Shown here in pieces: positions 15,001 to 35,837 of a stretch of DNA of 64,000 nt. Location: positions 62,001-126,000 of the forward strand of contig NW_026859131.1 in the NCBI RefSeq assembly GCF_026571515.1. Reading direction: 5' to 3'. Numbering within the stretch: position 1 is the stretch's first letter; the number at the start of each line of letters is the position of its first letter. The stretch comes from Ruditapes philippinarum. Lineage: Eukaryota. The position numbers were made by a program.

Positions 15001-18000
15001 AAATAAATTCAGCCATGTCGTAAGAAAGAAATTAGTCATTTGTTCTAGTTTGACAGTATTTTACTTGCAAACTTGTTATTTCTTGAACTTGTTAATAAAA
15101 ATTATTCTCCATTAAGAGCAAATATATCAGGTTTATTTTTTTTTAGATTCTTTTTACTATAAGGCCGCAACTTGTTGATTGATGCACGGTATATATAATA
15201 TATAAAAGTTGCATGTTAACAGGGGAGTGCGTTAATTGATAACTTGCGTCTGAACTATGATTAATTAATTGTGGTTCTGAAAACAAGGAAACATAGATAT
15301 AATGCAAAGTTTATGATGTAAATTCATTATTATACAGCATCTTTTCGCATCTTATTCTTGGTATGGTTGGGTGTATTTCACATATTATTTGCAGCTTTAC
15401 GTGAATGAACATTATTTGGCGTATATTTCTTTTATTTCAGGCAAACGCTATTGCGAGTGTATTTTGTTTATTACTTGCACAAATAAAATCAAAGTGCTGC
15501 AGCACTGAATGCGACGGACATGCAACCGGAGAGACATTAAGGCTTCTTTTAGAAAAAACATAGCAAAAACAAAACATAAAAAATATAAAAGAGAAATTCG
15601 TTCCATTCGAGATTTGTAGAGCAATATATTTTGTGTCCCAAACTGATATAATTCAGATTTTCTACTCTCGAGCACTTAAATACAGAATGAAATTTATGCC
15701 TAAAAACTCTGGTCAAACTTGTAAATCAGTGTCCTTATCGATTTATTCCATGAAATGATATGTAAATAGAAAAAAAACCGTCAACGAAATATTTCTAAAA
15801 TAAAACCAGGCAAATAAACTTCAAACATAAATTAGTACATTATACATTTGAGAATGCTATTTAGAATTGCTTCGTGTTATATCATAGTGAGCATATAGAC
15901 AATAAAATATAAGTCATTTGTATTTTTTTATGTCCCATTAAAAAACAATTTGGTTAAAATCATCAGCAATTAATAGTGTATTTTTTAGATTTTTTTTATT
16001 TACAAGGTAAAGATGTAGAGGCCAGAGCACATCGTTTTTATTTTATTTTAAATGTCACTTAAGCACTACAGTGTTTAGTTGTCCTTTTCAATTTCACACT
16101 AAATTCCATTTTCAACTTGTTTGCTTCTTACAATTGTATAGAATTTCTAAAAGTATTGGTTTATTACATGTATAATGTGTACTCCCTAATCGCCTGTCCA
16201 AAAATCAGAACAGGCGAAGCAGAATCTATTTTTAGAATAGCGAAGGTTAACTCATATCATGACCTAGAAAAATATATTAACAAACCACAAGAATCGGAAG
16301 TAGAACTGATATTATAACTTCCTTACCATGAAAGACTACATGGCGGTCAAGTGTTGAAAAACTCTCTCCTTACATGCATTTTCAAAAATAGATATTTATA
16401 CTAACCATTGTACTGTATCTAAGATATTAATAACTGCTGAATATTCAGCTAAACCCGCGGTATGAGTCATGAAAATAGTTCTTCTTTTATTATTGCGCGA
16501 GTTATCCTAGAGTCACGAAAAACTTTTGATTAACTTTCGATTTGTTAATAATAATGTTTTGTATAATGAAGAAATATTTATTTCCTACTAATAATGTCTT
16601 GGAACTCAGAGGTTACACCTTTATTGTAGTATAATTTGCTGTCCTACTTTTTCGACAGCGGTAAATCGTTTCGGCAGTAATTTGCATATTGCGCAATAAT
16701 ACTACGGGACTACAACGTTTTTATCAATAATATACGTTCATATTTTAACTTGGATAACTTAATTTGAAATTGAAAAGGCTAAATATGGAAGATTTTAAGA
16801 TATCAAGACAAAGTATGGGAGTTTTGAAGGATCAAATTCATGTACTATTTTTTGGGATGTTAATCGGTTTAGGACACACTGCGCGATTGTAGCCAACGAA
16901 TTCCCATGAAGATGACTTAGCTCTGAACGCGCCTGAGGGCGCGTCCGTCGCAAAAACATATTAGAGAGTCAGTTAACTCACAAAACAACACAGGGGAGAA
17001 TACTACGTTAAAGTATTGTATTCCATTTTCAACGGTTAAATGCCTGAGTGAGTGTGAGTAAGTTATCATAGCATGTGAGCTATAACATATTATAAACAAA
17101 TGAACAATAAAATCTGGAAGAAATTGAGTTGAAAGGGAGTCAATCCCTAACTTTAATCATTCATATATATTCATTTATGCATTCTATCAAGCAAACATAC
17201 ATGTATATAACTATTCTTTCACGCTAAGTTTAATAAATGTATCTATGTATACATTATATACAACTGGTAAATAAGACTTATCAGCTTTCGTTAAGACATT
17301 ATACATATATATATATTATTAGCGATTTTGAGTAATGAAATGATATTTGCCAAACCAATAATTATATCATGAAACTATCATCGCAGCGATTGTCTAAATT
17401 GTCACCCTATCTTCCATATATTTTAAAGATTGTTTATACCGAAAAACAAAACATAAATCAATTATACATATAACTGATGTTGCACATGACATCAAAAGTG
17501 ATGAGTGAACCGAAAAGACACACTTGTAGTTCTGAAAACCAGGAAACATAGATATAATGCAACGTTTCTGATGTTTCAAAATTTGTATGTAAATTAATTG
17601 TTATACAGCAACTTTCACCTCTTCTTCTTGGTACGGTTGATACATATAGTTTGGATCCTCTTCGTCAAACATATTTGTATCAAACTCTTCTAATTTTATA
17701 TCACTCTTTGTAACTTCTTTTGTAAACGGTATAACAGGTGTTTCAAAACGTTCTAGAGCTACGGAACCTTGTAAGGATAGTCTACTATCATCATTGTCGA
17801 TGTTGTTTATATCTGATATCATAACTGGTGTCATTGGAATTGGAGAGAAATCAGTCTGCGTGCCGTCCTCAAAAAATTCGGGTAATGGCGATTTCTGGGA
17901 TTCTAATTTGTTCAAATTGTCTTTCTTCTTTTTGTTCAAATTGTCCCGTTTCTTTAATCTGCTTACTTGGGTTGAAGGTGTTCGGGGTACACGTTTATGC

Positions 18001-33000: not shown

Positions 33001-35837
33001 TCTACTTATAGATTTTTTTGCAGGGGTAAAAACTACCCCCCAAGTGATTTACTTTTTCACGATTTTCTTACTTCTTTTTTTCGAAAAAATTTTATTTTTT
33101 AAAAATTTTTTTTTCTTTGGGTATTTTTATAAAAAACCAAATTTCAAAAAGTATTAAACAGTTAGTTTTGCAGAAATTAACATTCGCTAACTGAAACTAT
33201 TTCAATTTCCTGAAAGGAAAACCTTTTCAAATTTAATACTTTTTAAAATTTTAAAAAAACATTTTAAACAACTACAATCAATTGTTTCAGGCATCAATAG
33301 AGTCAGCTGGGACAAGTGAAACTTTCCGCAAGCGTTTTAACCCAAACAGAACGTCACCTCATTGGCCGCCTGGAAAAGGGATTTTTTATGGGGCAACTGT
33401 AAGGGACTTTTTTTGTATACGGGCCTTTAATTTAAGGTCCCCGATTTTATTTTCTCAAATTAAAAATTTCTTTTTAAAATTTTTTTTAAAATTTTGTTGA
33501 CGAAATTCTTTTTCACGATTTCTTTTCCAAAAAAGGAATTTAAAAAGAAAAATATTTACTTTTTGTAGGAAAACATATTAATATTAGCTTATTCACTTTA
33601 TATTTTGAATAAAAAAAGTAGGGGAAAAACTTTGCCTTTTTAAAAATAAAATTGTATGTTATAACTTTATGCCAAGTGAAAATGCATATTTTATACATAA
33701 ACAAATGAATTATATGTCATAACATGTATTTATCGCTAAATTATGTGTATTTTGTGTTTTAAACAGCAACTTGTAAGACAAATGACGACGAAACATCGAC
33801 AACATTGAGTGCTGGTGCTGCAACAGCCATTGTTCTCGCACTTCTAATTCTCATTGGTGCCGCCATCGTCGTCGGTATCTGGTATTATATTAAAGTATAT
33901 AGGTTCAAAAAGGTCAACCCAGACATGATACCTTCCAAATCTCCACCATTAGACACAAAAGAGAAAAATCTAGACGGTAGAGTTTCACCATTCTCACCGT
34001 ATCCAACGGTCAGTGAATTGGCTGTCGGTCGATTTGGTCCATCGGAAATTGACGACGACGATGGTGGCATGACTCTTGAAGCAACTACTCCAGGGTTTAC
34101 AGACGGAAGGAGAACGATGTACGGGAAAGATGTTGAGAGGGAGTCGCAAGCTAGTTTACCTATGTACAGTGAAGTTGGTGGAGACACACCGGAACCTACG
34201 AGGCTTAGCGAGGTTCATACTAGGATGAGTGAAATTTCTGAGGTCAATATTGCTGATCCGACGCCATTTACAATGACACGTGCCACTATGAACATTCCTG
34301 AAGAAACACGAGTTTCACCACTTCAAACCCCGGAAAACAGGCCAAATGGAGAAGTTCATTCACCAAGAGAAAATGGTGAAGTAAATGACGTAACCCTTTA
34401 AAAAATTGGTTTAAAATAAAAAAATGGCACTTTATAGTGAATCGCGGACGTCCCCTTCCATTTTCAGAAATGTTCATTTTTTCATTTATTGAAAATGTAA
34501 GTTTTTCCCCTTAAATTTGGACGGGTTTGTAAAGGGTTTCACATAAATCAATTTTTTATTGAAAGCAAAGATCTTTAAAAATCATTGGGACAATAAAAAA
34601 AAACATAAAAGTTAAAAAAACTTTTAAATTTTTTATATAATACGGGCCCAAAAGACATTTTAAAGTTGTAGTTAGATGATGAATGTCGCCTTATAATATT
34701 TTTACTGAAACCTTTTATAAATATGATGAATTATATACTTAAAATTATGTTTGTTTAATGCACAGTTTTGCCTGAAAAATCAATTATTTATATACTTGAC
34801 TTTATAAATCAAATGTTTAAGATACTAACACTAAACACTTCCTATGATCTGAAACAGGATGTTGTAAAAACTGTACAGTGAATTTTCAAAAAAGTTATCG
34901 GAAATAGAGTTGCACCAATTACAGCATTGCTAACGTTCAATAGAGGTACTCAGTTTAGATACATAGGTGTTGTCAAAGCCGTATAACATTTACGACAACC
35001 AATTCGAACAAAAAATCATTTTTTTGTTCAACGGTTAGCATAAAGCAGAAATTAAAGTGGCCATCCGGAATATATGTTACAGTTTTTTAGAGTAAGATGG
35101 TCACTATTCAGAGGAGGACACATGTTTGATTGTATATTTTGTGTGAGTGAGTGCACCTGTATTTGTTGTTACACCAAGTCATGAGATTCATCATCTTTGT
35201 GTTTGTATTGTATACTCTATATTTCAAATAGTATACATACATGAACTTATACCGGACATTTTTTGAGTTTTTTGTTTATATACACAACTATGTTCTTTTC
35301 TTAATTAAGTTTTATGAATTCATAATAAATGTGTTTATCTTAGTACATGAATGAAGTTACTTGTGAAAAATGAATTCCCCACATTATTCTTCTATTAGAA
35401 CAGTTTACAAAATAGTATTCATTTTCAAAAGTAAAATACTTATATATACAAAGCAATGTAAAATATAAATTCTATATAAAGTTGGAGAAAGATTTCGGGA
35501 AAAAAATGACAATACTGCTTTAACATTATCATACAAAAACTTTCAAGTTCAGAATTTGTTTTGGCAATTCAATGTCTAATTACTTCAACAGTCCATTCAT
35601 TCACAACAAAATTCATAGCTCTTAGAGCCAATGCGTTTTACTTATCAGAATAAGCCCATTAATTTCCAGAAGCAATTAAATGCAGCGTACATACCAGTAT
35701 AGTTTGCTTCAATTTGAGGACAAACCTTGGGGGTCAACGCTTAGTTTCAAATACAGATGGATCACTTTGCTAGAAGCGTCATCACTGTCAGCTAAATAGC
35801 AATTTTCAATTTTACTCATTGAGCAGCTTACAGTTTT

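What the first reader, a model, noticed from the sequence alone, without database searches (positions are those of the whole stretch)
17601..34401. Head-to-head paralogous receptor-like genes: same ectodomain, unrelated tails
Seen: ATGs 2.0 kb apart on opposite strands, matching ectodomain intron phases and Cys pattern, and similar juxtamembrane LSAG..AIV. Gene A has a ~650-aa basic multi-exon tail; gene B has a ~170-aa acidic single-exon tail. Inference: a co-regulated pair of uncharacterised surface proteins (heterodimer or paired receptors with different outputs) from an old inverted duplication.
Basis: partly seen in the sequence, partly recalled or inferred. Interest (0 to 1): 0.7.

Follow-up and report, generated by a model that had tools for sequence, protein, structure and literature searches.

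The report
Neighbouring clam surface-protein paralogues, different tails
Two back-to-back clam genes encode related single-pass membrane proteins from a large, uncharacterised mollusc family, each with its own conserved cytoplasmic tail, and one of the two has lost part of its outer domain in this genome.

Summary
The observation largely holds. Gene A (minus strand, 15 exons, 886 codons, 17601-26563) and gene B (plus strand, 28575-34401) start 2.0 kb apart, head to head. They share a signal peptide, a Cys-rich ectodomain, identical intron phases at the first five introns and at the intron before the membrane exon, and a similar membrane segment. Their tails are unrelated.

Both belong to the mollusc branch of the Pfam DUF7043/DUF7042 family: 305 clusters, type I membrane proteins with very variable tails, no paper found. 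The ectodomain models confidently as two beta-rich domains, with no convincing solved relative.

Both tail types are old. A-type and B-type tails recur in bivalves and gastropods. Locus tags or accession numbers suggest the genes are neighbours in Mactra antiquata and Haliotis asinina, often with a third paralogue nearby.

All other B exons are intact.

Co-regulation and heterodimerisation remain untested, and the tree cannot show that A and B are sister genes.

Verdict: new members of a known but uncharacterised family, of moderate interest. Whole-protein work used database orthologues.

The parts
26503..26563 (-). Gene A exon 1: start codon and signal peptide (phase-1 donor)
26029..26185 (-). 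Gene A exon 2: start of first ectodomain domain (weak DUF7043/DUF7044 match)
25609..25721 (-). Gene A exon 3: first ectodomain domain, middle
25136..25264 (-). Gene A exon 4: first ectodomain domain, end
24589..24762 (-). Gene A exon 5: start of second domain (DUF7042, 28.4 bits, cut-off 27)
23646..23761 (-). Gene A exon 6: DUF7042 middle
23243..23357 (-). Gene A exon 7: DUF7042 end (donor 3 bases further in is also possible)
22488..22651 (-). Gene A exon 8: Ser-rich stalk, membrane segment, basic juxtamembrane stretch
21839..21994 (-). Gene A exon 9: conserved juxtamembrane tail module
20934..20984 (-). Gene A exon 10: 17-codon mini-exon, present in P0003 and P0005, absent from the P0004 model
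20537..20714 (-). Gene A exon 11: basic tail segment
20122..20297 (-). Gene A exon 12: tail segment
19683..19814 (-). Gene A exon 13: acidic tail segment
18356..18692 (-). Gene A exon 14: start of the conserved helical tail module shared with gastropod A-type proteins
17601..18202 (-). Gene A exon 15 with stop codon: end of helical module and C-terminal tail; residues 1-190 of P0008 are identical to it
26564..28574 (.). Region between the two start codons (2,011 bases); candidate shared upstream region, promoter not tested
   Evidence: inference
28575..28641 (+). Gene B exon 1: start codon and signal peptide (phase-1 donor)
29085..29250 (+). Gene B exon 2: start of first ectodomain domain (weak DUF7043 match)
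29570..29676 (+). Gene B exon 3
30021..30146 (+). Gene B exon 4
32197..32361 (+). Gene B exon 5: start of second domain (DUF7042, 18.5 bits, below cut-off)
32917..33025 (+). Gene B exon 6 counterpart, broken: likeness to relatives runs in two reading frames (one frame change); AG and GT flanks are kept
33272..33410 (+). Gene B exon 7 remnant, broken: two in-frame stops and the conserved Cys lost (bounds approximate)
33767..34401 (+). Gene B exon 8 with stop codon: stalk, membrane segment and 169-aa acidic tail

Best explanation
The region holds two divergently oriented members of the mollusc branch of the DUF7043/DUF7042 protein family. Both are type I membrane proteins with the same layout: signal peptide, an ectodomain of about 275 aa made of two disulphide-rich beta domains, a Ser/Thr-rich stalk, one membrane helix, then a tail.

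Gene A is the A-type orthologue. Its tail is about 560 aa and mostly disordered. It carries a conserved module next to the membrane and a conserved helical module near the C-terminus, and it is alternatively spliced (mini-exon 10). Gene B is the B-type orthologue. Its tail is 169 aa, acidic, encoded in one exon, and carries conserved short motifs.

Shown here:
- homology of A and B
- the exon structure
- family membership
- the age of both tail types
- a confident two-domain model of the ectodomain with no solved relative
- decay of B exons 6-7

Inferred:
- Both proteins sit in the plasma membrane and bind an extracellular ligand through the beta domains. Their unrelated, disordered tails recruit different cytoplasmic partners through short linear motifs, so one recognition module is wired to different outputs.
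- The genes have stayed neighbours since before bivalves and gastropods split. This could be because they share regulatory DNA, or simply because the cluster has never been broken up.
- In this genome B is still under constraint, either as a shortened form that skips exons 6-7 (exon 5 to exon 8 keeps the frame) or as a very recent casualty.
For: Exon structure:
- 15 A exons, all with AG/GT, sum to 2,658 bases = 886 codons.
- B exons 1-5 and 8 all have AG/GT and are open. Together they sum to 1,263 bases, in frame.

Homology of A and B:
- Exon pairs score E 3e-7, 0.037, 6e-8 and 6e-9.
- P0004 against P0002 scores E 1.3e-30.

Family:
- DUF7042 scores 28.4 bits on exon A5 alone.
- 305 clusters match at E <= 1e-3.
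- 96 of the 150 listed hits have a near-complete ectodomain. 64 of those 96 have a membrane segment within 80 aa. Tails run from 18 to 1,012 aa.
- Every organism named is a mollusc; many rows carry no name.
- Atlas clusters are Mollusca and Arthropoda.

A-type architecture in one chain:
- Mytilus trossulus XP_063417620.1 matches query residues 12-754, and Argopecten XP_069131458.1 matches 20-766.
- The tail module is also found in Haliotis, Lottia and Patella.

B-type tail motifs occur in Mizuhopecten, Ylistrum, Dreissena, Magallana and Haliotis.

Neighbourhood hints:
- Mactra antiquata: ACF0H5_011139/011140.
- Haliotis asinina: XP_067660574/575/576.
- Argopecten: XP_069131457-59 and -461.
- Nucella: ACOMHN_024240/024242.

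Structure:
- The P0026 ectodomain models at pLDDT 92.7, pTM 0.86.
- The P0004 ectodomain blocks are about 90. Its tail is below 50 except for helices at 631-708.

Constraint on B exon 8:
- It is 79-85% identical to the M. antiquata protein.
- It has no stop in 210 codons. 4.5 new stops would be expected at 20% neutral divergence (P = 0.011).
Against: - No expression, localisation or binding data exist for any family member, as far as my searches show (0 papers). The mechanism is therefore inference from architecture.
- B exons 6 and 7 are broken. A form that skips them would lack 2 of the 10 conserved Cys of the family, so it may not fold.
- For B, Pfam scores stay below the cut-off: 18.5 bits on exon 5 and 21.5 bits for orthologue P0002, against a cut-off of 27. 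DUF7043 is below the cut-off for both genes.
- Exon 3 of A and of B do not align by BLASTP.
- The tree does not resolve A, B or A+B clades: 16.5%, 26.5% and 1.5% of 200 bootstraps.
- Neighbourhood in other species rests on numbering of tags and accessions, not on coordinates. In Dreissena the two tags are 97 apart, although on the same chromosome record.
- No solved or viral structure matches convincingly: 0 PDB hits at E <= 1e-3, best TM 0.29. There is 1 BFVD hit at E 4.5e-4, with TM 0.21-0.26.
Confidence: 0.6

Rival explanations
1. Gene B is a pseudogene in this genome. The pair is then one working gene (A) beside a decaying copy, and no functional pairing exists here.
For: The exon 6 counterpart needs two reading frames, and the first frame hits a stop before the donor. 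The exon 7 remnant has two in-frame stops and has lost the conserved Cys. 0 tblastn HSPs from 172 family proteins fall on these exons, against 14 and 23 on A6 and A7. No protein identical to B was returned by the searches.
Against: All six other B exons are open with canonical splice sites. Exon 8 is more conserved against M. antiquata (79-85%) than the last exon of the intact gene A (69%). It has no stop in 210 codons, where several would be expected if it had drifted as long as exon 7. The M. antiquata model also avoids part of exons 5-6, so the odd structure may be older than the species split.
Confidence: 0.3
2. One reading: A and B are co-regulated from a shared bidirectional promoter and act together, either as a heterodimer or as paired receptors with opposite outputs.
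For: Head-to-head starts lie 2.0 kb apart. Neighbourhood is apparently kept in a clam and an abalone. The membrane exon is the most similar part of the two proteins (47% identity against about 30% in the ectodomain). Both tail types are conserved separately.
Against: Nothing tests expression or contact. There is no charged residue in either membrane segment, and I saw no ITIM-type motif (read; consensus recalled). A third paralogue is often in the same cluster. B's ectodomain is incomplete here. Transcription start sites are unknown, so 2.0 kb is an upper bound only between coding starts.
Confidence: 0.15
3. Gene A is two genes wrongly read as one: a short membrane protein (exons 1-8) and a separate cytoplasmic protein (exons 9-15).
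For: The Dreissena model DPMN_107358 (595 aa) and the unnamed protein P0003 (542 aa) hold only the tail part.
Against: Exon 8 ends in phase 0 at a GT donor and exon 9 begins in phase 0 after an AG. RefSeq models of Mytilus trossulus and Argopecten irradians, and the M. antiquata model, carry ectodomain, membrane helix and tail in one chain, matched as a single stretch. Haliotis and Lottia A-type proteins have both the ectodomain and the tail module.
Confidence: 0.05

Closest known systems
Pfam DUF7042 / DUF7043 / DUF7044 domain proteins (PF23069, PF23070, PF23071), molluscs and arthropods
   Same: Gene A exon 5 reaches the DUF7042 cut-off on its own. Exon 2 of both genes gives weak DUF7043 matches. 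Atlas neighbours are DUF7042/7043/7044 clusters (score 0.91; TM 0.89 to a mollusc cluster).
   Different: These families have no known function and no paper in the library searched. Arthropod clusters often carry three domains (7042+7043+7044), while the mollusc proteins here carry two plus a membrane helix and a long tail. B and its orthologue stay below Pfam cut-offs.
A-type orthologues: Mactra antiquata ACF0H5_011139, Mytilus trossulus LOC134695799/LOC134700185, Argopecten irradians XP_069131457-59, Haliotis asinina XP_067660575.1
   Same: Same ectodomain, membrane helix, juxtamembrane module and C-terminal helical module.
   Different: All are unnamed 'uncharacterized' or 'hypothetical' proteins. 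Tail length varies from 364 to 622 aa among the Mytilus isoforms. The window's copy includes a mini-exon that the M. antiquata model lacks.
B-type orthologues: Mactra antiquata ACF0H5_011140, Mizuhopecten yessoensis LOC110440311, Ylistrum balloti LOC132562572, Haliotis asinina XP_067660576.1
   Same: Acidic tail of about 140-180 aa with the same short motifs and a hydrophobic C-terminal residue.
   Different: The scallop, abalone and unnamed P0002 proteins have a complete second ectodomain domain. The window's gene does not.
Vertebrate paired immune receptors (KIR, LILR, SIRP type; recalled from general knowledge)
   Same: The idea only: closely linked genes with like ectodomains and different tails.
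   Different: No sequence or fold relation. There is no charged membrane residue and I saw no ITIM-type motif. The ectodomain is not immunoglobulin-like.
Small tandem beta-barrel proteins in the PDB (DUF4822 4nw4, TbpB/LbpB, hemophilin, single-chain streptavidin dimer, MoaF-like 4q51)
   Same: These are the best Foldseek rows by probability for the ectodomain model (0.44-0.85). All are proteins built from two small beta domains.
   Different: E-values are 3e-3 or worse, TM 0.29 or less, rmsd 15-20 A, identity about 10%. This is a lead about fold class, not a relationship.

Membership tests
Pfam DUF7042 (PF23069) | Score at or above the curated cut-off of 27 bits: gene A | tested here: met
   Exon A5 alone scores 28.4 bits, E 1.7e-6. 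Orthologue P0004 scores 27.4 bits.
Pfam DUF7042 (PF23069) | Score at or above the curated cut-off of 27 bits: gene B | tested here: not met
   Exon B5 scores 18.5 bits and orthologue P0002 21.5 bits. Homology to A-type is shown instead by phmmer, E 1.3e-30. The window's spliced protein was not scanned because exons were not joined.
Pfam DUF7043 (PF23070) | Score at or above the curated cut-off of 27 bits | tested here: inconclusive
   Exon A2 scores 17.4 bits, B2 17.5 bits and P0004 22.2 bits (E 1.9e-4). All are below the cut-off. Each exon holds only about half a domain.
Mollusc type I membrane branch of the family (the 305 clusters) | Signal peptide, about 275-aa ectodomain, membrane helix within 80 aa, tail | tested here: met
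   Both genes have all four parts. 64 of 96 near-complete relatives show the same layout.
Mollusc type I membrane branch of the family | Ten conserved Cys of the ectodomain (5 invariant and 5 nearly invariant columns, alignment A2) | tested here: inconclusive
   Gene A has 11 Cys spread over exons 2-7. Gene B has the 8 of exons 2-5, and the rest fall in its broken exons. Column-by-column mapping of window exons onto A2 was not done.
A-type orthogroup | Conserved juxtamembrane module and C-terminal helical module in the tail | tested here: met
   Exon A9 matches 23 stored proteins and exon A14 matches 20 at E <= 1e-3, including Mytilus, Argopecten, Magallana, Haliotis, Lottia and Patella.
B-type orthogroup | Short acidic tail with shared motifs | tested here: met
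   The B tail matches P0001 (85%), P0002 (69%), P0017 (38%, E 5e-25) and P0062 (E 2e-7). Motifs are aligned. 12 further partial or whole relatives are listed.
Paired immune-type receptors | Inhibitory Tyr motif in one tail and a charged residue in the partner's membrane helix (definition recalled) | tested here: not met
   Read directly from the translations: no D, E, K or R inside either hydrophobic segment. The one conserved Tyr motif of the B tail has Pro two places before the Tyr.
Calycin / lipocalin-like beta-barrels | Significant fold match to a solved member | tested here: not met
   0 of at least 500 PDB rows at E <= 1e-3 for either model, with best TM 0.29. One BFVD row names a lipocalin-like domain, at E 4.9e-3 and TM 0.24-0.26.
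APCDD1 (two beta-barrel type I membrane protein) | Fold or sequence match to the solved ectodomain 8e0p | tested here: not met
   Rank 47, E 0.057, probability 0.11 with the P0004 model. Absent from the 50 rows shown for the cleaner P0026 model. No hit in the PDB sequence search.
Bidirectional-promoter gene pair | Transcription starts close together and correlated expression (definition recalled) | not testable with these tools
   Only the coding starts are known (2,012 bases apart). There are no transcript or expression data.

The most novel reading that the evidence does not exclude
The A-type, B-type and a third ('C-type') paralogue form a gene cluster kept together since before bivalves and gastropods diverged. 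They would be kept together because they are subunits or alternative arms of one mollusc-specific cell-surface receptor system. Its ectodomain fold has no solved relative, and its outputs are set by three unrelated, separately conserved disordered tails. In this clam lineage, the B arm is being remodelled by loss of two ectodomain exons.
Probability: 0.15. Interest if true: 0.65.

Novelty: new member of a known kind. Interest (0 to 1): 0.35.

Why it matters
The family is large in molluscs (305 clusters at 50% identity). It already has Pfam entries, but no function, no solved structure and no paper that my searches could find.

This locus contributes four things:
- a clean 15-exon gene model for an A-type member
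- evidence that two tail types are old and evolve separately from the shared ectodomain
- hints of a conserved cluster
- a natural case of partial ectodomain loss with the tail retained

If the cluster is confirmed by coordinates and expression, it would point to a lineage-specific surface recognition system. That system could then be studied by descriptive means: structure, localisation and expression. If not, this is an ordinary pair of paralogues, one of them damaged.

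Tried and rejected
- **Chance resemblance.** Rejected by the exon-wise E-values and the orthologue match.
- **Recent inverted duplication.** Rejected: 0 inverted DNA repeats of 40 bases or more in 17000-35000, and about 30% protein identity.
- **A and B as sister genes.** A first NJ tree of 97 ectodomains placed the B clade next to the A clade. With 27 chosen sequences and 200 bootstraps the grouping vanished (1.5%), so I make no claim. One search was a failed script on the untrimmed alignment.
- **The two ectodomain halves as an internal repeat.** Profile against profile gave probability 3%, so this is not supported.
- **More family genes in the window.** None found. All 310 HSPs from 172 proteins fall inside the two genes.
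- **Known domain in the A tail.** No Pfam hit for P0003 or P0005, no PDB sequence hit for a 12-sequence tail profile, and no usable Atlas hit.
- **Solved relatives of the ectodomain by sequence.** The only matches were chance hits to membrane-helix regions, at E >= 0.079.
- **A transcript of the window's own gene B that would show its splicing.** None of 12 B-type proteins is identical to the window; the best is 84%.
- **RNA families in the window.** None.
- **Tandem repeats in the region.** Only five short AT-rich arrays.
- **A fuller retroelement around the reverse-transcriptase ORF.** 0 of 8 neighbouring plus-strand ORFs hit Pfam.

Full report
**What the window is.** The window is AT-rich: GC is 0.29-0.34 in the 2-kb steps across the finding. 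It has one run of N at 39901-40062, which I neither filled nor looked up. I do not take it for human. The closest named proteins are from the clam Mactra antiquata (65-90% identity per exon) and other bivalves. No RNA family reaches its threshold anywhere in the window.

**How I worked with the spliced models.** I searched window sequence exon by exon only. I left the joined step out, so the window's own spliced proteins were never assembled, scanned or folded. Whole-protein analyses used database relatives returned by the tools: P0004 as A-type, P0002 as B-type and P0026 as an ectodomain-only relative. The check that gene A's exons add up to an open frame is arithmetic on exon lengths.

**Gene A (minus strand).** I placed fifteen exons by tblastn of P0004, P0003 and P0005 and by reading splice sites.
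- Every intron has AG and GT, no exon has a stop, and the lengths sum to 2,658 bases (886 codons). The stop codon is at 17601-17603.
- Exon 1 is a signal peptide. Exons 2-4 and 5-7 encode the two halves of the ectodomain.
- Exon 8 encodes a Ser-rich stalk, the membrane helix and a KRKKKK stretch.
- Exons 9-15 encode the rest of a tail of about 560 aa in all.
- Exon 10 is a 17-codon mini-exon. It is present in P0003 and the Dreissena protein but absent from the M. antiquata model, so it is probably alternative.
- Residues 1-190 of the library protein P0008 are identical to exon 15.

**Gene B (plus strand).**
- Exons 1-5 mirror gene A: signal peptide, then four ectodomain exons. Intron phases are the same (1, 2, 1, 1, 1) at equivalent residues, and 8 of 8 Cys match.
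- Exon 8 (33767-34398) begins in the same phase as A exon 8. It encodes stalk, membrane helix and a 169-aa acidic tail in one piece (K+R 19, D+E 29).
- The two exons in between are not intact. The exon 6 counterpart (32917-33025, AG and GT kept) resembles relatives in two different reading frames, and its first frame runs into a stop.
- The exon 7 counterpart survives as a remnant (about 33272-33410) with two in-frame stops and without the conserved Cys.
- As a control, 172 family proteins gave 14 and 23 tblastn HSPs on A exons 6 and 7, and none on the B counterparts at E <= 1e-3.
- Exon 5 ends in phase 1 and exon 8 starts with the two completing bases, so skipping both decayed exons would keep the frame (1,263 bases).

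**Is the resemblance real?**
The short exon 3 pair gives no BLASTP alignment.
- The orthologues P0004 and P0002 match over residues 17-350 at E 1.3e-30 in a library of 1.84 billion proteins.
- The tails are unrelated: best E 0.83 between the Dreissena A-type tail and B exon 8.
- There is no inverted DNA repeat of 40 bases or more between the genes. Any duplication is therefore ancient.

**The family.**
- Exon by exon, Pfam gives DUF7042 on A5 (28.4 bits, cut-off 27) and B5 (18.5 bits). It gives weak DUF7043 on A2 and B2 (17.4 and 17.5 bits). 6 of the 10 exon ORFs have no hit.
- On whole orthologues, P0004 has DUF7042 at 27.4 bits and DUF7043 at 22.2 bits, and P0002 has DUF7042 at 21.5 bits. 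The tail-only proteins P0003 and P0005 have nothing.
- phmmer with P0004 finds 305 clusters at E <= 1e-3, 186 at 1e-10 and 33 at 1e-30.
- 96 of the 150 listed hits have a near-complete ectodomain, and 64 of those have a membrane segment within 80 aa after it. Tails run from 18 to 1,012 aa (median 218). 45 of 62 tails of 30 aa or more are basic and 12 are acidic.
- Wherever a source names an organism, it is a mollusc. The names are 'uncharacterized', 'hypothetical', 'DUF7042 domain-containing', or artefacts of low-complexity tails.
- The ESM Atlas places the ectodomain among DUF7042/7043/7044 clusters of Mollusca and Arthropoda.
- So 'same ectodomain, different tail' is the rule in this family, not a peculiarity of this pair.
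- I found no paper naming DUF7042-7045, PF23069-71 or IPR055470 (0 papers). For Mactra antiquata I saw only a search listing of four papers and read none.

**Both tail types are old.**
- The A-type architecture (ectodomain, helix and tail as one matched stretch) is present in Mytilus trossulus XP_063417620.1 and Argopecten irradians XP_069131458.1.
- The juxtamembrane module (exon 9) is also found in Magallana. The C-terminal module (exons 14-15) is found in Haliotis, Lottia, Patella and Sinanodonta.
- B-type tail motifs are found in Mizuhopecten, Ylistrum, Dreissena, Magallana and Haliotis asinina, and in about a dozen unnamed partial proteins at 55-84% identity to the window's exon 8.

**Neighbourhood in other species.** This rests on numbering, not coordinates.
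- M. antiquata: the A and B orthologues are ACF0H5_011139 and 011140, on one 45.8-Mb record.
- Haliotis asinina: XP_067660574 (a third, 'C-type' paralogue), 575 (A-type) and 576 (B-type) sit on one record.
- Argopecten: A-type XP_069131457-59 and C-type XP_069131461.
- Mytilus trossulus: LOC134700185 (A-type) and LOC134700195 (C-type) lie on one 4.3-Mb contig.
- Nucella: ACOMHN_024240 and 024242.
- Dreissena: tags 107358 and 107455, on the same chromosome record but 97 apart.
- No C-type gene lies in this window.

**Phylogeny.** An NJ tree of 97 ectodomains put a B clade beside an A clade. With 27 labelled sequences and 200 bootstraps, support was 16.5% for the bivalve A clade, 26.5% for the bivalve B clade and 1.5% for A+B. 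The ectodomain alone does not resolve the history. The orthology statements above rest on the tails.

**Structure.**
- With an 84-sequence alignment, AlphaFold2 models the P0004 ectodomain at about 90 pLDDT as two beta-rich domains, followed by a long helix through the membrane. The tail is below 50 except for helices at 631-708.
- The ectodomain-only relative P0026 (Patella vulgata), with 53 sequences, gives pLDDT 92.7 and pTM 0.86.
- Foldseek against the PDB finds 0 matches at E <= 1e-3 for either model. The best rows by probability are proteins made of small beta-barrels (DUF4822, TbpB/LbpB, hemophilin, a single-chain streptavidin dimer, a MoaF-like protein), with TM of 0.29 or less.
- APCDD1, which I had in mind as a two-barrel type I protein, appears only at rank 47 (E 0.057) for one model.
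- BFVD gives one row at E 4.5e-4 with TM 0.21-0.26.
- Sequence profiles of the ectodomain and of the A tail find no solved relative.
- The two halves of the ectodomain are not detectably alike (hhalign probability 3%).

**Status of gene B.**
- Two exons are clearly decayed, which argues for a pseudogene.
- Against that, the six other exons are intact. Exon 8 is 79-85% identical to M. antiquata, while the last exon of the intact gene A is 69% identical.
- 3.6% of possible single-base changes in exon 8 would create a stop. Zero stops in 630 bases has P = 0.10 at 10% neutral divergence and P = 0.011 at 20%.
- The M. antiquata gene model also skips from inside exon 5 to the end of exon 6. The unusual structure may therefore predate the split of the two clams.
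- I favour loss of the two exons from a gene that is still used (inference). I give the pseudogene reading 0.3. A skipped form would lack two of the family's ten conserved Cys, which counts against it.

**How it most likely works (inference from architecture).** These are cell-surface proteins whose two beta domains bind something outside the cell. The unrelated, mostly disordered tails, each with its own conserved short motifs and a hydrophobic C-terminal residue, engage different partners inside. Nothing here tests binding, localisation, co-expression or A-B contact.

**Other features of the window.**
- The virus-like stretch is, as far as I can see, an open frame of 352 codons at 58561-59616 (+). 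It matches reverse transcriptase RVT_1 over profile positions 39-202 of 205 (E 1.8e-11). None of the 8 neighbouring plus-strand ORFs scanned hits Pfam.
- It looks like a truncated retrotransposon copy. I only describe it, and I did not count breaks because I aligned no full-length relative.
- It lies 24 kb from the finding and has no visible bearing on it.

Noticed in passing
window 58561-59616 (+): Open frame of 352 codons matching reverse transcriptase RVT_1 (profile positions 39-202 of 205, E 1.8e-11). 0 of 8 neighbouring plus-strand ORFs hit Pfam. It looks like a truncated retrotransposon copy and is probably the virus-like stretch the operators mention. Described only.
   Followed up: partly
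window 24110-24343 (-), inside the intron between gene A exons 5 and 6: 78-codon open frame whose Cys/His-containing pattern reminded me (recall only) of the C-terminal end of non-LTR retrotransposon ORF2 proteins. No Pfam hit.
   Followed up: partly
window 48958-49296 (+), perhaps with 47290-47586 (+): Exon-like open frame matching the C-terminal part of the MIEAP (mitochondria-eating protein) domain, 35 bits against a cut-off of 27. An unrelated neighbouring gene.
   Followed up: partly
window 39496-39900 (-), next to the N run 39901-40062: Open frame with a membrane-helix-like hydrophobic segment that runs straight into the masked run. No Pfam hit for the readable part. The N run was left as it is.
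   Followed up: no
window about 2000-4800: Strongly strand-skewed, low-complexity stretch (GC skew 0.47 and GC 0.41 in 2001-4000). It gives long Ser/Pro/Leu-rich open frames on the minus strand and Gly/Glu/Arg-rich ones on the plus strand. Probably a simple repeat rather than coding sequence.
   Followed up: no
window 35712-36047 (-) and 36532-37628: A run of 16 Gly codons in one open frame, and His/Ile-rich open frames on both strands. These are simple-sequence tracts.
   Followed up: no
window 20934-20984 (-): Gene A's 17-codon mini-exon is present in two relatives (P0003, P0005) and absent from the M. antiquata model P0004. With the six Mytilus isoforms of 690-948 aa, this suggests the A-type tail is alternatively spliced.
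   Followed up: partly
not in the window; relatives P0018, P0020, P0190: A third paralogue type ('C-type') has accession or locus numbers next to the A-type gene in Haliotis asinina, Argopecten irradians and Mytilus trossulus. No such gene lies within this window.
   Followed up: partly
window 10293-10565 (-): 91-codon open frame with a weak match, below cut-off, to DUF7292 (17.4 bits, E 0.0047). Meaning unknown.
   Followed up: no
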